This document shows, piece by piece, positions 44,157 through 61,649 of a stretch of DNA of 64,000 nucleotides. Origin of the DNA: a phage; the sequence record PZ171032.1, one strand, 5' to 3'. How positions within the stretch are numbered: the first letter of the stretch is position 1; each line of letters begins with the position of its first letter. The notes beneath the pieces are model-generated. The model did no database searches, was not told where the DNA came from, and saw only the letters and a list, made by a program, of their open reading frames with translations. The translations under genes and the position numbers were made by a program.

Positions 44157-46493
44157 TTACCAAAGGTCGGTAGACATGAAGTTGATATCTTTATTGTTCT
44201 CCCACTCCAGTTTTGCATCAAATATTTTGTTAAACTCACCCTCATCTATTGAAATCGTGATTTTCCCATCACTGATTTCTAAAGGTAACATTTCCATAGT
44301 TCTTAATTGAGAAGCAAAACCAGGGCCACCTGGTAACGGAAGAGTCCCGCCCGGCAAGGTGTCCAAAGGATTAACAAACCCGTTACCTCCTGATATGATA
44401 TCTTTGCGAATCATATCGCTGATAGTATCCAGCTGCTGATTTCTTTCACTCAACGGGTTGTAACGGTCATTAAACAATTCCCCGGCGCTTAGTATTGTAC
44501 CGATAATGCCTAACTTACCGAGCAGACCAACTTTGCCACCAGGTGTCTTGAGGCCACCTCCCCCCTTTCCTGCCGGAGCGCCACCACCAGATCCTTCTGT
44601 AGTAGCGGCACCCGCTGCTCCAGCTGCACCCCTTAGAGAGTTAAGGAATTTAAAGGTTTTTACAAGCATGGATGCCATGACAAAACCTTTTGTAAGGGCG
44701 TTCACTACCAGCATGATGGCAGCAGCAAACCCTGCCCATTTAGCATAGCTAAAGGTGTCATGAAGCTCTTCAGAATATTCCTTCGTCTTGGCTGTTATGA
44801 ATCCCCATTTAATCCCCCATTCAAGGAAAAACATGCGGATCTTGACTATAGTGTTGTTTAGTTCACCAACTACCCAGTTAAGGCCTCTCACAAATCCACT
44901 AACAAAATCACCAGAGGCATCCCACACAAATTGCAGAGTCTCGCCAGTGCGGATTAGTGTATAATAGAACTCTGTCAGTTCGTCAGACCAACGGGTGAAC
45001 AGTTTCTGACGAGTCAGTTCGATGAAGGTTTTCAGTCTGTTTTCTGCCAGCACGTTAGACTTCTGCATTCTTTCATAGCCAGCTGCAGATGCCTCGTTCA
45101 TGTACTTAGCCACATACTTCATGATCTTGGCTGTTTTAACCTCACCTTTCTTCATCATGTCCATGAACTGATCCATGGATAGTTCAGAAAGACCAAAAGC
45201 CTCTTTAGTGGCCTTGATAAAAGGTTCGTATGCACCCGGCAATGCTTCAGCAAGTTGTTGCTTCAGTTCTTCGGACATTACTTGTCCTTTCCCAAGCATC
45301 TGTTGGATTGCCATAATACCGCGCTGGTATTTTACCTCATCAGCACCATAAGCAGCAGCATACTGGGAGTATGCAGAAAACAGCTCATGCACTTCCTGAT
45401 TTGTCATCTGGTTTTTGGCGTTTACCGACATCTGGGCGTAACCTTGAAGACCAGATTTGAGATCAAAACCAAGACGCATAGCCTCTTGCTGGACAAACGC
45501 AACCTCACTGTTGGCTTTGTTTGGATCTCCAGTAACAGCAGTAAGAGCAGCACTTGCGCCCTCCATCATGTGACCGGATCTGTTAACCGCAGCAAATCCA
45601 GAAAAAGCTGTATACGCAGCTGTTGCATTAATAACAGATCTACGTAAGTCTCTCATGGCATCGCCTAGTGTAAGCGTTTGGCTGGTGGCACTTTTAAATC
45701 CAGACTGCAGCGCTGACAGGTGGGCGTTAAAGGTTGACTTTTTCATTTCCCCGCGAGCAAACCTGGACTCTAACTCTGAGTATCCTGGCAAGCTTCCACG
45801 GAATCCTGCCCCATACTTGGCAGAGAGTCTTATCGCAGAGTTGTAGAGGTGGGTTCTTCTTGCCTCACGATCCGACATAAGCCTATTATCCATACCAGCT
45901 TTACTGTCTCTTCTTAGCTGTCTATGATAACGATTCATAGCGGCTGTCTGGGCTTTCACAAGATTAGGATCTGAAGCCACCCCACCCATGTTCGGGTTGC
46001 CTGGAATATATCTGAAAGACTTGGCGTTAGCAAGAACTCTTGCCTTAGGTGCCTTATAACCCCCATAGGATACTGGTGCAGATTTGGCAGCTTTTTTAGC
46101 CTCTTTAGCTTGCTGCTGGTAGAACTTACGCATCCTAGCCATCTCTGGGTTTTTGGCGGTAAGATTGCCTACAGCTTGCCTACGTCTTGCATTCTCCCTA
46201 CGCTCTATTGCAGCCTTTACTGCAGCCTCTTTCTTGGCCTGAGCAACGCTCTCCCTGTGCAGTTTAGCATTTGCCTGAGATTGCTGTCTGGCAACCCTCT
46301 GCATTGTCTGCTGGGTTTTAACAGCTACCGCCTGCCATCTACTCATGGGGTTGGCTGAGTTAAAATCCTCGCCCAGTTTCCTGAACTCCCTCCCAATACT
46401 GCGAATTTTCTCTACAGCTTTTTTGTAGGAGGAGTTCTCTATCTCAAAGCCAATCTTGTTGACTGTTGTGGCAACTATTTTGTTTGTAGCCAT
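44157..46493 (-). CDS. tail tape measure protein
   Basis: 778 aa; Ala/Gln/Lys-rich helical N-terminal region, Gly-rich hydrophobic C-terminal region (GAAGAAGAATTEGSGGGAPAGKGGGG); lies downstream of chaperone pair with frameshift site. Confidence 0.8.
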   Translation of the reverse strand: MATNKIVATTVNKIGFEIENSSYKKAVEKIRSIGREFRKLGEDFNSANPMSRWQAVAVKTQQTMQRVARQQSQANAKLHRESVAQAKKEAAVKAAIERRENARRRQAVGNLTAKNPEMARMRKFYQQQAKEAKKAAKSAPVSYGGYKAPKARVLANAKSFRYIPGNPNMGGVASDPNLVKAQTAAMNRYHRQLRRDSKAGMDNRLMSDREARRTHLYNSAIRLSAKYGAGFRGSLPGYSELESRFARGEMKKSTFNAHLSALQSGFKSATSQTLTLGDAMRDLRRSVINATAAYTAFSGFAAVNRSGHMMEGASAALTAVTGDPNKANSEVAFVQQEAMRLGFDLKSGLQGYAQMSVNAKNQMTNQEVHELFSAYSQYAAAYGADEVKYQRGIMAIQQMLGKGQVMSEELKQQLAEALPGAYEPFIKATKEAFGLSELSMDQFMDMMKKGEVKTAKIMKYVAKYMNEASAAGYERMQKSNVLAENRLKTFIELTRQKLFTRWSDELTEFYYTLIRTGETLQFVWDASGDFVSGFVRGLNWVVGELNNTIVKIRMFFLEWGIKWGFITAKTKEYSEELHDTFSYAKWAGFAAAIMLVVNALTKGFVMASMLVKTFKFLNSLRGAAGAAGAATTEGSGGGAPAGKGGGGLKTPGGKVGLLGKLGIIGTILSAGELFNDRYNPLSERNQQLDTISDMIRKDIISGGNGFVNPLDTLPGGTLPLPGGPGFASQLRTMEMLPLEISDGKITISIDEGEFNKIFDAKLEWENNKDINFMSTDLW

Positions 46494-60611: not shown

Positions 60612-60688
60612 TGGTCTCCACGGAGTGATTCGAACACTCGACCTCCTGATCCCAAATCAGGCGCTCTACCAAGCTGAGCTACGCGGAG
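60612..60688 (-). tRNA. tRNA-Pro (anticodon UGG)
   Basis: Hand fold: acceptor CTCCGCG/CGTGGAG, D-arm TAGCTCAGCTTGGTAGAGC, anticodon stem CCTGA/TCAGG with loop UUUGGGA, T-arm GAGTG-TTCGAAT-CACTC, encoded CCA. Confidence 0.75.
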
Positions 60689-60699
60689 TATTTATTATT

Positions 60700-60774
60700 T
60701 GGTGGCCCTGGGTGGAATTGAACCACCGTCTGGCGATTATGAGTCGCTTGCTTGAACCTTCCAGCTACAGGGCC
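60700..60774 (-). tRNA. tRNA-Met (anticodon CAU; could be Ile-lysidine type)
   Basis: Acceptor GGCCCTG/CAGGGCC, anticodon loop CUCAUAA, T-arm GGTGG-TTCAATT-CCACC, encoded CCA. Confidence 0.65.
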
Positions 60775-60775
60775 A

Positions 60776-60851
60776 TGGTGCTGATGGCAGGACTTGAACC
60801 TGCAACCTATTGATTACAAATCAATTGCACTACCAATTGTGCTACATCAGC
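60776..60851 (-). tRNA. tRNA-Thr (anticodon UGU)
   Basis: Acceptor GCTGATG/CATCAGC, D-arm GCAC-AATTGGTA-GTGC, anticodon stem ATTGA/TCAAT with loop UUUGUAA, T-arm GCAGG-TTCAAGT-CCTGC, CCA encoded; 1-nt spacer to tRNA-Met. Confidence 0.75.
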
Positions 60852-60858
60852 AAAAAGG

Positions 60859-60955
60859 TGCTAGGTGATGGAATCGAACCACCTATGTATTCAACGACTA
60901 CCTCGTCTATTTTCAGGATTAAAAATCCTCGCCCTTGCCAAAGGGCTTACCTAGC
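60859..60955 (-). tRNA. atypical tRNA-like element (about 97 nt; anticodon loop UUUUUAA, so Lys-UUU if functional; possible pseudo-tRNA)
   Basis: Good acceptor (GCTAGGT/ACCTAGC) and T-arm (GGTGG-TTCGATT-CCATC) but about 30-nt variable region with internal hairpin and no encoded CCA. Confidence 0.35.
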
Positions 60956-61053
60956 TCAGTATGTTGACCATGTTGCTAGTCGGCGATGACGACTGTAACA
61001 TTTGATAATCCGGTTCTGCTTCCGGCTTTCGCTTAATTACAAGGTCAACAATA

Positions 61054-61144
61054 TGGCTGAGGGTAATGGAATCGAACCATCATCAAGTCATCCTCAACGG
61101 GACGGTTTTCAAGACCGCTTGAGCACCATTGCTCCCTACCCTCA
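61054..61144 (-). tRNA. tRNA-Ser (anticodon UGA), long variable arm
   Basis: Acceptor TGAGGGT/ACCCTCA, anticodon stem GCGGT/ACCGT with loop CUUGAAA, long variable arm, T-arm GATGG-TTCGATT-CCATT, encoded CCA. Confidence 0.6.
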
Positions 61145-61260
61145 TTTATAAACAATACTGATAATGACACTGATTTTCGAGCAGTTAGTGACTAGTATAA
61201 ACGACGATAAATATCAATGCCATTATCTGTATGATTTATGCATTTAAAAAAATATAAATT

Positions 61261-61348
61261 TGGTGGTGAGTGATGGAGTCGAACCACCCGAATCGCAATT
61301 ATAACAGATTTACAGTCTGCCCCGCTACCCCTACGGAATTAACTCACC
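61261..61348 (-). tRNA. tRNA-Tyr (anticodon GUA), long variable arm, irregular D-region
   Basis: Anticodon arm CAGACUGUAAAUCUG matches recalled E. coli tRNA-Tyr; acceptor GGTGAGT/ACTCACC, T-arm GGTGG-TTCGACT-CCATC, CCA encoded; D-arm pairing non-canonical. Confidence 0.55.
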
Positions 61349-61478
61349 TAAATACTAATATTTAAATTCTTTTTAAAATAGCTAGTGTTCTCACCACTAA
61401 CTATGAGGTATCGGTAAAGTGGTTACCGCCACTTGCCGAAGATTTACTCTGCTAAAGTAAGCTACATTAAAAAGAACT

Positions 61479-61553
61479 TGGCACCCCGTACTGGACTCGA
61501 ACCAGTGTCAACGGCTTAGAAGGCCGCTGCTTTATCCACTAAGCTAACAGGGC
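61479..61553 (-). tRNA. tRNA-Arg (anticodon UCU)
   Basis: Acceptor GCCCTGT/ACGGGGT (two G-U pairs), D-arm GCTT-AGTGGATA-AAGC, anticodon stem GCGGC/GCCGT with loop CUUCUAA, T-arm ACTGG-TTCGAGT-CCAGT, CCA encoded. Confidence 0.7.
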
Positions 61554-61649
61554 ACTGGGTGGCTTTCTTTTACACCTTAGCCGCCAGAAAAGGTGGGAGA
61601 CCATGTTTACAATATTACACTGTTAAGCAAAGTTTGTCAAGAAAATATT

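What the first reader, a model, noticed from the sequence alone, without database searches (positions are those of the whole stretch)
60612..61553. Compact tRNA cluster including one atypical 97-nt tRNA-like element and a tRNA-Tyr with irregular D-region
Six plausible tRNAs (Pro-UGG, Met-CAU, Thr-UGU, Ser-UGA, Tyr-GUA, Arg-UCU) sit on the block strand, with only 1 nt between tRNA-Met and tRNA-Thr. The element at 60859-60955 has canonical acceptor and T arms but a ~30-nt variable region and no encoded CCA; it may be a degenerate or unconventional tRNA, or a tRNA-like regulatory RNA. The inter-tRNA spacers (60956-61053, 61349-61478) also contain hairpins that could be additional small RNAs.
Basis: seen in the sequence. 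Interest (0 to 1): 0.4.

Follow-up and report, generated by a model that had tools for sequence, protein, structure and literature searches.

The report
Phage tRNA operon with tRNA-like RNA
This is the known tRNA gene cluster of an rV5-like E. coli phage, but its odd seventh "tRNA" belongs to a conserved, undescribed family of tRNA-shaped RNAs that probably does not read codons, and a 130-base spacer beside it is a second conserved structured RNA shared by unrelated phages.

Summary
On the minus strand, 60612-61553 holds six real tRNAs (Arg-UCU, Tyr-GUA, Ser-UGA, Thr-UGU, a CAU tRNA, Pro-UGG) plus a 97-nt tRNA-like element (TLE, 60859-60955). The window is a Vequintavirus (99.3% identical to phage ECML-10), and the rV5 paper already lists the six tRNAs.

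The TLE is not degenerate. It has homologues in at least four Vequintavirinae genera and in metagenomic phage contigs. In 27 distinct sequences, all 540 base-pair cells of the acceptor, D, hairpin-II and T helices pair. Ten of 20 pairs show compensatory changes, including the D-loop/T-loop elbow pair. Its anticodon-like hairpin has only 4 conserved base pairs and a loop that differs in sequence and length between genera. Two invariant single-stranded linkers flank a variable hairpin. I read it as a tRNA-processed, L-shaped mimic rather than a standard decoder; its function is unknown.

The Tyr-Arg spacer (61349-61478) is a second conserved structured RNA. It occurs in about 180 phage records from three families and was exchanged together with tRNA-Tyr. 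The CAU tRNA is probably Ile2 (AUA), not Met. The Ser and Tyr tRNAs are both irregular.

Overall this is a known cluster containing new variants of a known kind, of moderate interest.

The parts
61611..61640 (-). Sigma-70-like promoter for the tRNA operon (TTGACA, 17 nt, TAATAT)
   Evidence: Consensus scan, 10 of 12 matches. The equivalent position is annotated 'Sigma70-type promoter' in phage ECML-10. Activity is inferred, not shown.
61479..61553 (-). tRNA-Arg (UCU), reads AGA
   Evidence: ARAGORN and Rfam 67.8 bits. AGA makes up 37% of Arg codons in the window's ORFs.
61349..61478 (-). PTE: a conserved structured RNA that exactly fills the gap between tRNA-Arg and tRNA-Tyr. It has a long terminal stem closing three hairpins.
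   Evidence: MFE z = -3.4. Homologues at 71-100% identity occur in 182 phage records: Phapecoctavirus, Justusliebigvirus, T5-like phages, Certrevirus PBES02 and some Vequintavirus. The consensus structure has 31 pairs, 97.6% of cells pair, and 6 pairs show changes on both sides; 0 of 500 shuffles reach this, and slid controls give 33-55%. No Rfam match at E<=10.
61261..61348 (-). tRNA-Tyr (GUA), Phapecoctavirus-type allele with one extra base between position 9 and the D stem; CCA is encoded
   Evidence: Rfam 39 bits; missed by ARAGORN. Aligned with eight other Tyr tRNAs. The PTE+Tyr block is 98.7% identical to ESCO5/AV125.
61145..61260 (-). Ser-Tyr spacer containing a long imperfect hairpin
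   Evidence: MFE z = -4.35. Found only in Vequintavirus at 94% identity or more, so covariation cannot be tested. A weak promoter-like match lies at 61223-61194.
61054..61144 (-). tRNA-Ser (UGA) with irregular architecture: a possible 8-bp acceptor with a 4-bp T stem, a D arm of 5 bp plus a tetraloop, and G73-CCA
   Evidence: Found by ARAGORN only. The best Rfam hit is the tRNA-Sec model at 37.9 bits, below its gathering score of 47. Fold. A near-identical Ser in phage D6 carries compensatory 1:72 and 5:68 changes.
60956..61053 (-). Ser-trailing spacer. Its core (about 60971-61038) has two small hairpins and is shared with lambdoid and P1-like phages.
   Evidence: 87% identity to lambda 44867-44935 (between orf-64 and S), and also to HK630 and D6. 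One compensatory pair: GUCG..CGAC versus GGCG..CGCC. The core is present in 426 of 5426 E. coli genomes. MFE z = -2.6.
60856..60955 (-). TLE, the conserved tRNA-like RNA. Acceptor 60955-60949 pairs with 60866-60860. D arm 60946-60931. Hairpin II 60929-60915. Linker GAAAAUAG 60914-60907. Variable hairpin III 60906-60894. Linker UGAAUACAUA 60893-60884. T arm 60883-60867. Discriminator A at 60859, then CC 60858-60857.
   Evidence: ARAGORN 'tRNA-???'; Rfam tRNA 35.5 bits. MFE equals centroid, z = -3.66. Covariation. Family model R1 scores it 106 bits.
60776..60851 (-). tRNA-Thr (UGU), reads ACA
   Evidence: ARAGORN; Rfam 79.5 bits. Homologous to T4 tRNA-Thr.
60700..60774 (-). CAU-anticodon tRNA, annotated Met but most likely tRNA-Ile2 (AUA); it lies 1 nt after Thr
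   Evidence: ARAGORN; Rfam 60 bits. It has the same Thr-1 nt-CAU arrangement and the same GGCCCUG acceptor as T4 tRNA-Thr/tRNA-Ile. BASEL records annotate it as tRNA-Ile reading ATA. AUA makes up 22% of Ile codons in the window.
60612..60688 (-). tRNA-Pro (UGG), reads CCA
   Evidence: ARAGORN; Rfam 66.4 bits.

Best explanation
Region 60612-61640 (minus strand) is the tRNA operon of an rV5-like phage. One sigma-70-type promoter probably drives a polycistronic precursor, which host RNase P, 3' exonucleases and the CCA-adding enzyme cut into six decoding tRNAs for codons the phage overuses (AGA, AUA, ACA, CCA, UCA, UAC). The same processing would release at least two non-decoding stable RNAs. The 97-nt element (TLE) is a gene for a tRNA-shaped RNA. 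It keeps the parts of a tRNA that the processing and end-recognising machinery sees: a 7-bp acceptor stem, discriminator plus CC(A), a 5-bp T arm with a canonical T loop, the D-loop/T-loop elbow pair, and a long-stem, tetraloop D arm like that of tRNA-Sec. The decoding end is replaced by a short 4-bp hairpin with a lineage-specific loop, and by a 30-40 nt insert made of two invariant single-stranded linkers (GAAAA..., ...AAUACAUA) around a variable hairpin. Shown here: conservation, covariation, restriction to phages, one copy per genome, and dispensability in culture. Inferred: that it is expressed, processed and stable; that it is not a normal decoder; and that it works as a tRNA mimic, with the conserved linkers binding a protein or RNA partner while the acceptor/T half supplies processing, stability and possibly recognition by tRNA-binding enzymes. 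The 130-nt element upstream of tRNA-Tyr (PTE) would be released by the same cuts, as a separate RNA closed by its own terminal stem.
For: Identity of the cluster:
- The window is 99.3% identical to Escherichia phage ECML-10 and matches many other Vequintavirus genomes.
- The rV5 paper lists the same six tRNAs.

TLE structure:
- In 14 and then 27 distinct homologues, 266/266 and 540/540 pair cells are standard pairs.
- 8 of 19 and then 10 of 20 pairs have changes on both sides; slid controls give 33-48%.
- The elbow pair (columns 18 and 91) is G-C in 20 sequences and U-A in 7.
- Each homologue folds to the same architecture on its own.

TLE as a family:
- Model R1 scores members at 95-118 bits, with one copy per locus.
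- The best ordinary tRNAs score 27 bits or less.

Arguments against decoding:
- Only 4 base pairs of hairpin II are conserved.
- Its loops are UUUUUAA, UUUAUAA, CCAUCCAG, CCAGCCAG, CCCUCCAG, CCUUCCAG, CAUCAAA or UAUCAAA, so length, position 33 and the 'anticodon' all vary.
- Position 8 is an invariant A, not U.
- Generic predictors reject the homologues in other genera.

Processing context:
- In other genera the TLE starts 2 nt after the CCA of the preceding tRNA and encodes U-CCA itself.
- In the window it is followed by CCUUUUU and then G1 of Thr.

Distribution:
- Only 3 chance hits in 185,579 species genomes.
- No hit to the TLE part in 5426 E. coli genomes.

PTE.
Against: - There is no expression, end-mapping or aminoacylation data for any member, so everything about function is inferred.
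- The Vequintavirus copy, unlike the others, has a canonical-looking 7-nt loop (U33, UUU, A37) and A73. Together these are the E. coli LysRS identity elements as I recall them, and several GenBank records call it tRNA-Lys. A decoding role in this genus is therefore not excluded.
- Natural isolates V18 and ECTP4/JES2013 have lost the 5' part of the element together with Ser and Tyr, so it is not needed for growth on laboratory hosts.
- The relatedness of the sequences inflates the shuffle statistics. The slid controls and the number of pairs changed on both sides are the sturdier evidence.
- No target for the conserved linkers was found in the 64-kb window.
Confidence: 0.6

Rival explanations
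1. The element is a working, if odd, tRNA-Lys(UUU) in Vequintavirus. LysRS charges it and it reads AAA. It may be kept because its altered anticodon stem and huge variable region make it resistant to host tRNA-Lys-directed nucleases such as PrrC, RloC or PARIS AriB.
For: - Rfam aligns the loop as U32 U33 U34 U35 U36 A37 A38, and the element passes the tRNA gathering score.
- The discriminator is A73 only in the genus that has UUU.
- Several submitters' pipelines call it tRNA-Lys.
- Phage tRNA-Lys variants are known to rescue infection from PARIS and PrrC (PMC12409363; PMC11555353).
Against: - The anticodon stem has 4 base pairs, not 5.
- Position 8 is A, and the variable region is 30 nt with single-stranded flanks.
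- The closest sister genus (Av-05) has UAU with U73 or C73 on an otherwise 93%-identical body, which does not fit a conserved Lys identity.
- In the remaining genera the loop has 8 nt (or 6), or lacks U33.
- AAA is a common, well-served host codon (57.6% of phage Lys codons), so codon supply gives no reason to carry this tRNA.
Confidence: 0.15
2. It is a decaying tRNA pseudogene (for example a former class II tRNA) with no function of its own.
For: - It is dispensable in V18 and ECTP4/JES2013.
- ARAGORN cannot assign an anticodon, and some records label it 'tRNA-Pseudo' or 'OTHER'.
- The next-best hits of the family model are class II tRNAs.
Against: - A pseudogene would accumulate helix-breaking changes. 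Here 540 of 540 pair cells stay paired across genera that are only 72-78% identical, with 10 compensated pairs including a tertiary pair.
- Two single-stranded linkers are invariant or nearly so.
- There is exactly one copy in every genome examined.
Confidence: 0.04
3. It is a cis-acting processing or punctuation element. Its tRNA shape recruits RNase P and 3' trimming enzymes to separate neighbouring RNAs, or it acts as a partial terminator, and the excised RNA itself is waste.
For: - It always lies inside a polycistronic tRNA array, 2-7 nt from a neighbouring tRNA.
- The T arm and acceptor stem followed by UUUUU score as terminator-like in the window.
Against: - Punctuation needs only an acceptor/T minihelix. 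It does not explain the invariant linkers, the conserved base of hairpin II, the covarying D stem and elbow pair, or the encoded CCA.
- The U-run is absent in other genera, which have UCCAAA instead.
- The flanking tRNAs carry their own RNase P sites.
Confidence: 0.1
4. It is an allo-tRNA or tRNA-Sec-like recoding tRNA (a nonsense or missense suppressor) charged through its long extra arm and discriminator.
For: - The D arm can form 6 bp plus a tetraloop, as in tRNA-Sec and allo-tRNAs.
- It has a long extra arm, and most members have U73.
- The Henunavirus-type members have the loop CAUCAAA (anticodon UCA) and are annotated 'tRNA-TERM'.
- They reach 36-39 bits on Rfam tRNA-Sec.
- Allo-tRNAs have very diverse anticodons, including UAU (PMC5389517).
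Against: - The acceptor and T stems are 7 and 5 bp, not 8/5, 8/4 or 9/3.
- The anticodon stem is shorter than normal, not longer.
- Position 33 is A or C in most members.
- The tRNA-Sec scores are below the gathering score of 47 and no better than those of ordinary Ser and Tyr tRNAs.
- The extra hairpin is held 7-10 nt away from both neighbouring helices, unlike the variable arm that SerRS reads.
Confidence: 0.08

Closest known systems
Allo-tRNAs and other tRNA-Sec-like irregular tRNAs (Mukai et al. 2017, PMC5389517)
   Same: Both have a long-stem, tetraloop D arm, a long extra arm, mostly U73 or G73, highly variable 'anticodons' and an uncertain role ('suppressors and/or regulatory ncRNAs'). 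Some allo-tRNAs occur in phage tRNA clusters.
   Different: The TLE has a canonical 7/5 acceptor/T branch rather than 8/4 or 9/3. Its anticodon stem has 4 bp rather than being lengthened. Its loops are not always 7 nt. Its extra hairpin is flanked by invariant single-stranded linkers. The neighbouring tRNA-Ser(UGA), not the TLE, is the gene that looks like an (8/4) tRNA-Ser.
Phage T4 small stable RNAs C and D (species 1 and 2 RNAs)
   Same: They are non-tRNA stable RNAs encoded inside a phage tRNA cluster and transcribed with it, and their roles are still unknown (T4 annotation; PMC3014915). The window's Thr-CAU pair is homologous to T4 Thr-Ile.
   Different: There is no detectable homology: model R1 finds nothing at T4 rnaC/rnaD. 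They also differ in size (139 and 119 nt).
Bacillus cereus tRNA-Other (a pseudo-tRNA with a regulatory role)
   Same: It is a tRNA-like RNA that is not used in translation yet has a cellular effect. It is cited as charged by LysRS class I/II (PMC3399842 abstract; PMC5389517).
   Different: It is chromosomal and found in Firmicutes. No sequence relation was tested, and it has ordinary tRNA length.
Phage-encoded tRNAs that counter tRNA-targeting immunity (T5 tRNA-Lys/Thr/Asn versus PARIS; T5-like tRNA-Tyr versus retron-Eco7; tRNA-Lys versus PrrC)
   Same: The genomic setting (phage tRNA cluster) and the host (E. coli) are the same. The window carries Thr-UGU, Tyr-GUA and a UUU-loop element, which are the very specificities attacked by AriB and PtuAB (PMC12409363; PMC11555353).
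   Different: Those are bona fide decoders that differ from the host tRNAs by a few substitutions. The TLE departs from tRNA architecture, and no defence phenotype has been tested for it.

Membership tests
Canonical elongator tRNA (decoder) | 7-bp acceptor stem, 5-bp T stem, 7-nt T loop (UUCRANY) and the G19:C56 elbow pair | tested here: met
   All pairs are kept in 27 distinct homologues. The elbow pair covaries, G-C in 20 and U-A in 7.
Canonical elongator tRNA (decoder) | 5-bp anticodon stem with a 7-nt loop, U33 and purine 37, conserved within the family | tested here: not met
   Only 4 base pairs are conserved. The loops have 7 or 8 nt (or 3-6 if the stem is extended). Position 33 is U, A or C, and the 'anticodon' is UUU, UAU, UCC, GCC or UCA.
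Canonical elongator tRNA (decoder) | Core tertiary nucleotides U8 and A14, and a variable region of 4-5 nt (class I) or up to about 21 nt (class II) starting directly after position 44/45 | tested here: not met
   A8 and U14 are invariant. The variable region is 30-41 nt, with a 7-8 nt linker on the 5' side and a 9-10 nt linker on the 3' side, both single-stranded. The canonical values are from established tRNA knowledge.
Canonical elongator tRNA (decoder) | Recognition by generic tRNA predictors | tested here: inconclusive
   The window copy gets Rfam tRNA 35.5 bits (gathering score 29) and ARAGORN 'tRNA-???(atcc)'. Homologues in Av-05, Seunavirus, Mydovirus and Henunavirus are found neither by ARAGORN nor by Rfam at gathering score. 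tRNAscan-SE could not be run.
Canonical elongator tRNA (decoder) | Aminoacylation and use on the ribosome | not testable with these tools
   This needs charging assays and tRNA sequencing or ribosome profiling of infected cells.
Bacterial tRNA-Sec | 8/5 acceptor/T branch, 6-bp anticodon stem, UCA anticodon, G73, and a score above the Rfam RF01852 gathering score | tested here: not met
   The branch is 7/5 and the stem has 4 bp. UCA occurs in one clade only, and the discriminator is U73 or A73. RF01852 scores are 27.5-39 bits against a gathering score of 47. Only the 6-bp, tetraloop D arm is compatible.
Allo-tRNA (Mukai 2017) | 12-bp acceptor branch split 8/4 or 9/3 | tested here: not met
   The split is 7/5 in all members. 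A8 cannot pair with position 65, which is C in the window.
Allo-tRNA (Mukai 2017) | tRNA-Sec-like D arm (long stem, tetraloop), long V-arm, G73 or U73, diverse anticodons | tested here: inconclusive
   The D arm can form 6 bp plus 4 nt, but the extra U-A pairs never vary, so they are not proven. U73 is present in all genera except Vequintavirus (A73) and some Avunavirus-type copies (C73).
T4 RNA C / RNA D | Sequence or structure homology to T4 rnaC or rnaD | tested here: not met
   Model R1 gives no hit on T4 70908-71171; it hits only the T4 Thr and Leu tRNAs, at about 25 bits.
tmRNA | tRNA-like domain plus a tag reading frame, detectable by ARAGORN or Rfam | tested here: not met
   ARAGORN finds no tmRNA. 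The only Rfam hit is a spurious 17-bit permuted-tmRNA match over the Pro/CAU tRNAs.
tRNA-Ile2 (for the CAU tRNA at 60700-60774) | CAU anticodon with C4:G69 and C5:G68 (TilS determinants), and no initiator features (C1xA72, three G-C pairs in the anticodon stem) | tested here: met
   The sequence GGCCCUG...CAGGGCC gives C4:G69 and C5:G68, 1:72 is G-C, and the anticodon stem is GCGAC/GUCGC-like. It is homologous to T4 tRNA-Ile. The TilS rule is recalled from the literature, not tested. Lysidine modification cannot be tested here.

The most novel reading that the evidence does not exclude
The TLE is a dedicated RNA tRNA-mimic used in the phage-host conflict over tRNAs. In one version it is a decoy that soaks up or blocks a host effector that recognises tRNAs (an anticodon-arm nuclease such as AriB, PrrC or RloC, or an enzyme acting on the CCA end). 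In another it is charged (Lys-type in Vequintavirus, Gly-type U73/C35C36 in Seunavirus and Mydovirus) for a non-ribosomal purpose. The PTE would then be a mobile RNA module that travels with tRNA-Tyr between unrelated phage families as part of a counter-defence cassette.
Probability: 0.15. Interest if true: 0.8.

Novelty: new variant of a known kind. Interest (0 to 1): 0.5.

Why it matters
Phage tRNA genes are now understood as counter-measures to tRNA-cleaving immune systems as well as codon supplements. Vequintavirinae (rV5-like phages) are common in phage-therapy and biocontrol collections.

A tRNA-shaped RNA that keeps the acceptor, T arm and elbow under clear purifying selection but has lost the decoding end would be a concrete candidate for an RNA-based tRNA mimic or decoy. 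At the least it is a new stable phage ncRNA family. Public records currently annotate it inconsistently as tRNA-Lys, tRNA-OTHER, tRNA-TERM, pseudo, or not at all.

The PTE shows that non-tRNA RNA modules move horizontally together with specific tRNAs (here tRNA-Tyr, the target of retron-Eco7). That makes the role of such 'spacers' testable by experiment.

There are practical consequences too. The 'Met' tRNA should be annotated Ile2. tRNA counts for these phages differ between pipelines because three of the seven genes are irregular.

Tried and rejected
- **Antisense target for the invariant linker.** I searched the window for the complement CCTATGTATTC. Only the element itself matched exactly, and the two 1-mismatch hits are within chance. 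No target is proposed.
- **Homology to T4 RNA C/D.** Rejected using model R1.
- **Bacterial or archaeal origin.** The genome-contig scan gave three hits, all chance matches with no tRNA-like fold. E. coli genomes lack the TLE.
- **tRNA-Sec.** Scores are below gathering and no better than those of the Ser and Tyr tRNAs.
- **PTE as a promoter.** I considered this because Azam et al. describe a strong promoter for T5-like tRNA-Tyr. The consensus scan finds no promoter inside the PTE in the window or in HildyBeyeler. In HildyBeyeler an extended -10 (TGGTATAAT) lies just upstream of the PTE, so the PTE is transcribed leader RNA.
- **Flanking ORFs.** PHROG searches give only 'unknown function' families and Rz-like spanins downstream, with no tRNA-related enzyme.
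- **IMG/VR pattern scans.** They added few sequences. The metagenome scan was more useful.
- **Literature searches.** None found a paper describing either element.
Full report
**1. Observation**

ARAGORN finds six genes on the minus strand between 60612 and 61553: Pro-UGG, a CAU tRNA, Thr-UGU, an unassignable 'tRNA-???' at 60857-60955, Ser-UGA and Arg-UCU. Rfam's tRNA model adds Tyr-GUA at 61264-61348 (39 bits). It scores the odd element 60859-60955 at 35.5 bits, just over the gathering score of 29. Ser matches only the tRNA-Sec model, and below threshold.

**2. What the region is**

The window comes from an rV5-like E. coli myovirus. It is 99.3% identical to phage ECML-10, and over 100 Vequintavirus records cover most of the cluster. 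The rV5 genome paper reports exactly these six tRNAs and relates them to codon usage, but does not mention the seventh element (PMC3606486).

In the window's own ORFs the matching codons are heavily used: AGA 37% of Arg, ACA 34.5% of Thr, CCA 27.7% of Pro, UCA 16.8% of Ser and AUA 22% of Ile. A sigma-70-like promoter lies at 61640-61611 and is annotated as such in ECML-10. The flanking ORFs are of unknown function, and spanin genes follow downstream. The cluster as such is already known.

**3. The 97-nt element (TLE) is a conserved RNA gene, not a wreck**

Public records label it tRNA-Lys, tRNA-OTHER, tRNA-Pseudo, tRNA-TERM, tRNA-???(atcc), or nothing.

BLAST, pattern scans of IMG/VR and metagenomes, and a purpose-built covariance model recovered homologues from:
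- Avunavirus (Av-05);
- Seunavirus (PVP-SE1, 4MG, KE22, EspYZU15);
- Mydovirus (KB57, Mydo);
- Erwinia phages Hena1 and pEp_SNUABM_01;
- uncultured contigs.

Every homologue folds on its own into the same architecture:
- 7-bp acceptor stem;
- D arm (4 bp with an 8-nt loop, or 6 bp with a tetraloop);
- short hairpin II;
- linker GAAAA(U/C)A;
- variable hairpin III;
- linker (G/A)AAUACAUA;
- 5-bp T arm with a UUCGAUU-type loop;
- discriminator and CCA.

On 27 distinct sequences, 540 of 540 cells in 20 tested pairs are standard pairs, and ten pairs show changes on both sides. Sliding the 3' partners by 1-3 columns drops pairing to 33-47% (the smaller set is). The D-loop/T-loop elbow pair (the G19:C56 analogue) switches from G-C to U-A in seven sequences, which supports an L-shaped tRNA fold.

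Family members score 95-118 bits on model R1, with one copy per genome. The best ordinary tRNAs score 27 bits or less.

The element is absent from one-per-species bacterial and archaeal genomes (three chance hits) and from 5426 complete E. coli genomes.

**4. Why I do not think it is a normal decoder**

- Only four base pairs of hairpin II are conserved.
- Its loop is UUUUUAA in Vequintavirus and UUUAUAA in Avunavirus. It is CCAUCCAG, CCAGCCAG, CCCUCCAG or CCUUCCAG in Seunavirus, Mydovirus and their relatives, and CAUCAAA or UAUCAAA in the Erwinia-phage clade.
- Loop length, position 33 and the nominal anticodon therefore all change, while the rest of the molecule is held constant.
- A8 and U14 replace the near-universal U8 and A14.
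- The insert between hairpin II and the T arm is 30-41 nt, with invariant single-stranded flanks, unlike any class II variable arm.
- Generic predictors reject the copies in other genera.
- Genera whose TLE has a UCC-like loop also carry a normal tRNA-Gly(UCC).

In other genera the TLE begins 2 nt after the CCA of the preceding tRNA and encodes U-CCA. This fits maturation by RNase P and 3' trimming like its neighbours.

The conserved parts are the ones read by processing and end-recognising enzymes. The linkers look like a sequence-specific binding platform.

I therefore commit to this reading: a tRNA-processed, L-shaped tRNA mimic whose function lies in the acceptor/elbow half plus the linkers (confidence 0.6). 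Whether it is a decoy, a charged non-ribosomal adaptor or something else is open.

**5. Caveats and rivals**

The Vequintavirus copy is the one variant with a canonical-looking loop (U33, UUU, A37), and it is also the only one with A73. These are the LysRS determinants as I recall them, so a Lys-decoding role, perhaps resistant to nucleases, cannot be excluded (0.15). Against it: the sister genus has UAU with U73 or C73 on a 93%-identical body, and the stem has 4 bp.

The pseudogene reading is contradicted by the covariation (0.04). A pure cis-processing role does not explain the linkers, the D arm or the elbow (0.1). tRNA-Sec and allo-tRNA membership fail on the 7/5 branch, the short stem and sub-threshold scores (0.08).

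The element is dispensable in culture. V18 and ECTP4/JES2013 carry Tyr/TLE chimeras made by deletions between the nearly identical T arms (GGTGGTTCGAYTCCATCAC) or between the variable regions. These deletions remove Ser and the 5' part of the TLE.

**6. The spacers**

*61349-61478 (PTE).* Most rV5-like phages have Arg-4 nt-Tyr here. The window and a sub-lineage instead have a 130-nt element that exactly fills the Arg-Tyr gap.

- It recurs at 71-100% identity in about 180 records: Phapecoctavirus, Justusliebigvirus, T5-like Tequintavirus, Certrevirus PBES02 and some Vequintavirinae. It is always wedged against the 5' end of a tRNA, usually Tyr and sometimes Lys-Tyr.
- Its consensus fold is a terminal stem closing three hairpins. 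It has 31 pairs, 97.6% of cells pair, and six pairs are changed on both sides. None of 500 shuffles reach this, and slid controls give 33-55%.
- PTE+Tyr together are 98.7% identical to Phapecoctavirus ESCO5/AV125. This points to a recent cassette exchange that replaced the rV5-type Tyr.
- In T5-like HildyBeyeler an extended -10 (TGGTATAAT) lies just upstream. There the PTE is the transcript's 5' leader, not a promoter.
- Hairpins 1-2 of the PTE also occur at 97% identity on 165 E. coli plasmids, with no tRNA nearby.

*60956-61053.* Its core is 87% identical to lambda 44867-44935 (between orf-64 and S) and to the sequence trailing tRNA-Ser in P1-like phage D6. One hairpin pair is compensated.

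*61145-61260.* It folds very stably (z = -4.35) but is confined to Vequintavirus, so covariation cannot be tested.

**7. The ordinary tRNAs are not all ordinary**

- **CAU tRNA.** It shares the Thr-1 nt-CAU dimer and the GGCCCUG acceptor (C4:G69, C5:G68) with T4 tRNA-Ile, and it lacks initiator features. It is most likely Ile2 reading AUA.
- **Ser-UGA.** It can form an 8-bp acceptor with a 4-bp T stem and a 5-bp, tetraloop D arm, ending in G73-CCA. Its D6 homologue has compensatory 1:72 and 5:68 changes. This matches the '(8/4) tRNA-Ser in bacteriophages' of Mukai et al., though 7/5 is not excluded.
- **Tyr.** It has one extra base before the D stem relative to eight relatives, yet shows compensatory differences from the rV5-type allele, so its structure is maintained.

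**8. Comparison with known systems, and novelty**

The nearest concepts are:
- allo-tRNA and tRNA-Sec-like irregular tRNAs;
- B. cereus tRNA-Other;
- the phage tRNAs that defeat PARIS, PrrC and retron-Eco7.

The TLE fails the defining tests of each named family but works like the general class of tRNA-shaped non-decoding RNAs in a phage tRNA operon. No paper in the searchable library describes the TLE or the PTE, and Rfam has no family for either.

Verdict: the cluster is already known; the TLE and the PTE are new variants of a known kind. Interest is 0.5. The structural evidence is robust and the topic is timely, but no function has been shown.

Noticed in passing
window 61349-61478 (-); L033 701-830, L034 701-818, L035 701-818: The Arg-Tyr 'spacer' is a conserved structured RNA (PTE). 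It occurs in about 180 phage records from Vequintavirinae, Stephanstirmvirinae and T5-like Demerecviridae, always abutting the 5' end of a tRNA (usually Tyr). No record annotates it and Rfam has no family for it.
   Followed up: yes
window 61255-61485 (-): The PTE plus tRNA-Tyr block is 98.7% identical to Phapecoctavirus phages (ESCO5, AV125), although the genomes belong to different subfamilies. This looks like a recent cassette exchange that replaced the rV5-type Tyr, which lies 4 nt after Arg in most rV5-like phages.
   Followed up: yes
window 60971-61038 (-); lambda NC_001416 44867-44935; D6 L075 901-966: The core of the spacer after tRNA-Ser is 87% identical to noncoding DNA between orf-64/tR' and the holin gene S of phage lambda, and to the sequence after tRNA-Ser in P1-like phage D6. 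It is also present in 426 of 5426 E. coli genomes. It forms two small hairpins, one with a compensatory change. Its function is unknown.
   Followed up: partly
window 61054-61144 (-): tRNA-Ser(UGA) is irregular. It may have an 8-bp acceptor with a 4-bp T stem and a tetraloop D arm (allo-tRNA-like). Only ARAGORN finds it, and its best Rfam match is tRNA-Sec below threshold. The D6 record notes that tRNAscan-SE could not call the homologous gene.
   Followed up: partly
window 60700-60774 (-): The 'tRNA-Met' (CAU) is homologous to T4 tRNA-Ile and carries C4:G69 and C5:G68. It is probably tRNA-Ile2 reading AUA, which makes up 22% of the phage's Ile codons. Most GenBank records, and the rV5 paper, call it Met.
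   Followed up: partly
L011 1151-1250 (V18); L012 1130-1240 (O157 typing phage 4 / JES2013 type): Two independent natural deletions fuse the 5' part of tRNA-Tyr to the 3' end of the tRNA-like element, through their near-identical T arms or their variable regions. Ser is removed and a chimera with a mismatched acceptor stem is left.
   Followed up: yes
L032 759-1100 (phage 241Ecol014PP): An HNH endonuclease gene sits where tRNA-Pro lies in the window. Together with the deletions and the cassette swap, this marks the tRNA cluster as a recombination hot spot.
   Followed up: no
L005 1306-1496, L006 1306-1495, L008 1239-1429, L017 8503-8693; L009/L010 1487-1565: In Seunavirus the roughly 190-nt spacer after the tRNA-like element is strongly conserved (alignment A4) and may hold another RNA. 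In the Mydovirus phages KB57 and Mydo, Rfam reports a tRNA-like hit (34.9 bits) that ARAGORN does not find.
   Followed up: no
window 61145-61260 (-): The Ser-Tyr spacer forms a long imperfect hairpin (MFE z = -4.35) and contains a weak promoter-like match at 61223-61194. One record annotates a repeat_region there. It is found only in Vequintavirus.
   Followed up: partly
L076 1001-1062 (E. coli plasmid NZ_CP027327.1) and 164 other plasmids of about 90-127 kb: Hairpins 1-2 of the PTE (62 nt) occur at 97% identity on many E. coli plasmids. They overlap a hypothetical CDS on the opposite strand, and no tRNA gene is found by ARAGORN in the 2-kb locus.
   Followed up: partly
GenBank records MG0656xx: About 18 records named 'Campylobacter phage' with host C. 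jejuni are 98-100% identical to E. coli rV5-like or Phapecoctavirus phages across this region. The host labels look doubtful.
   Followed up: no
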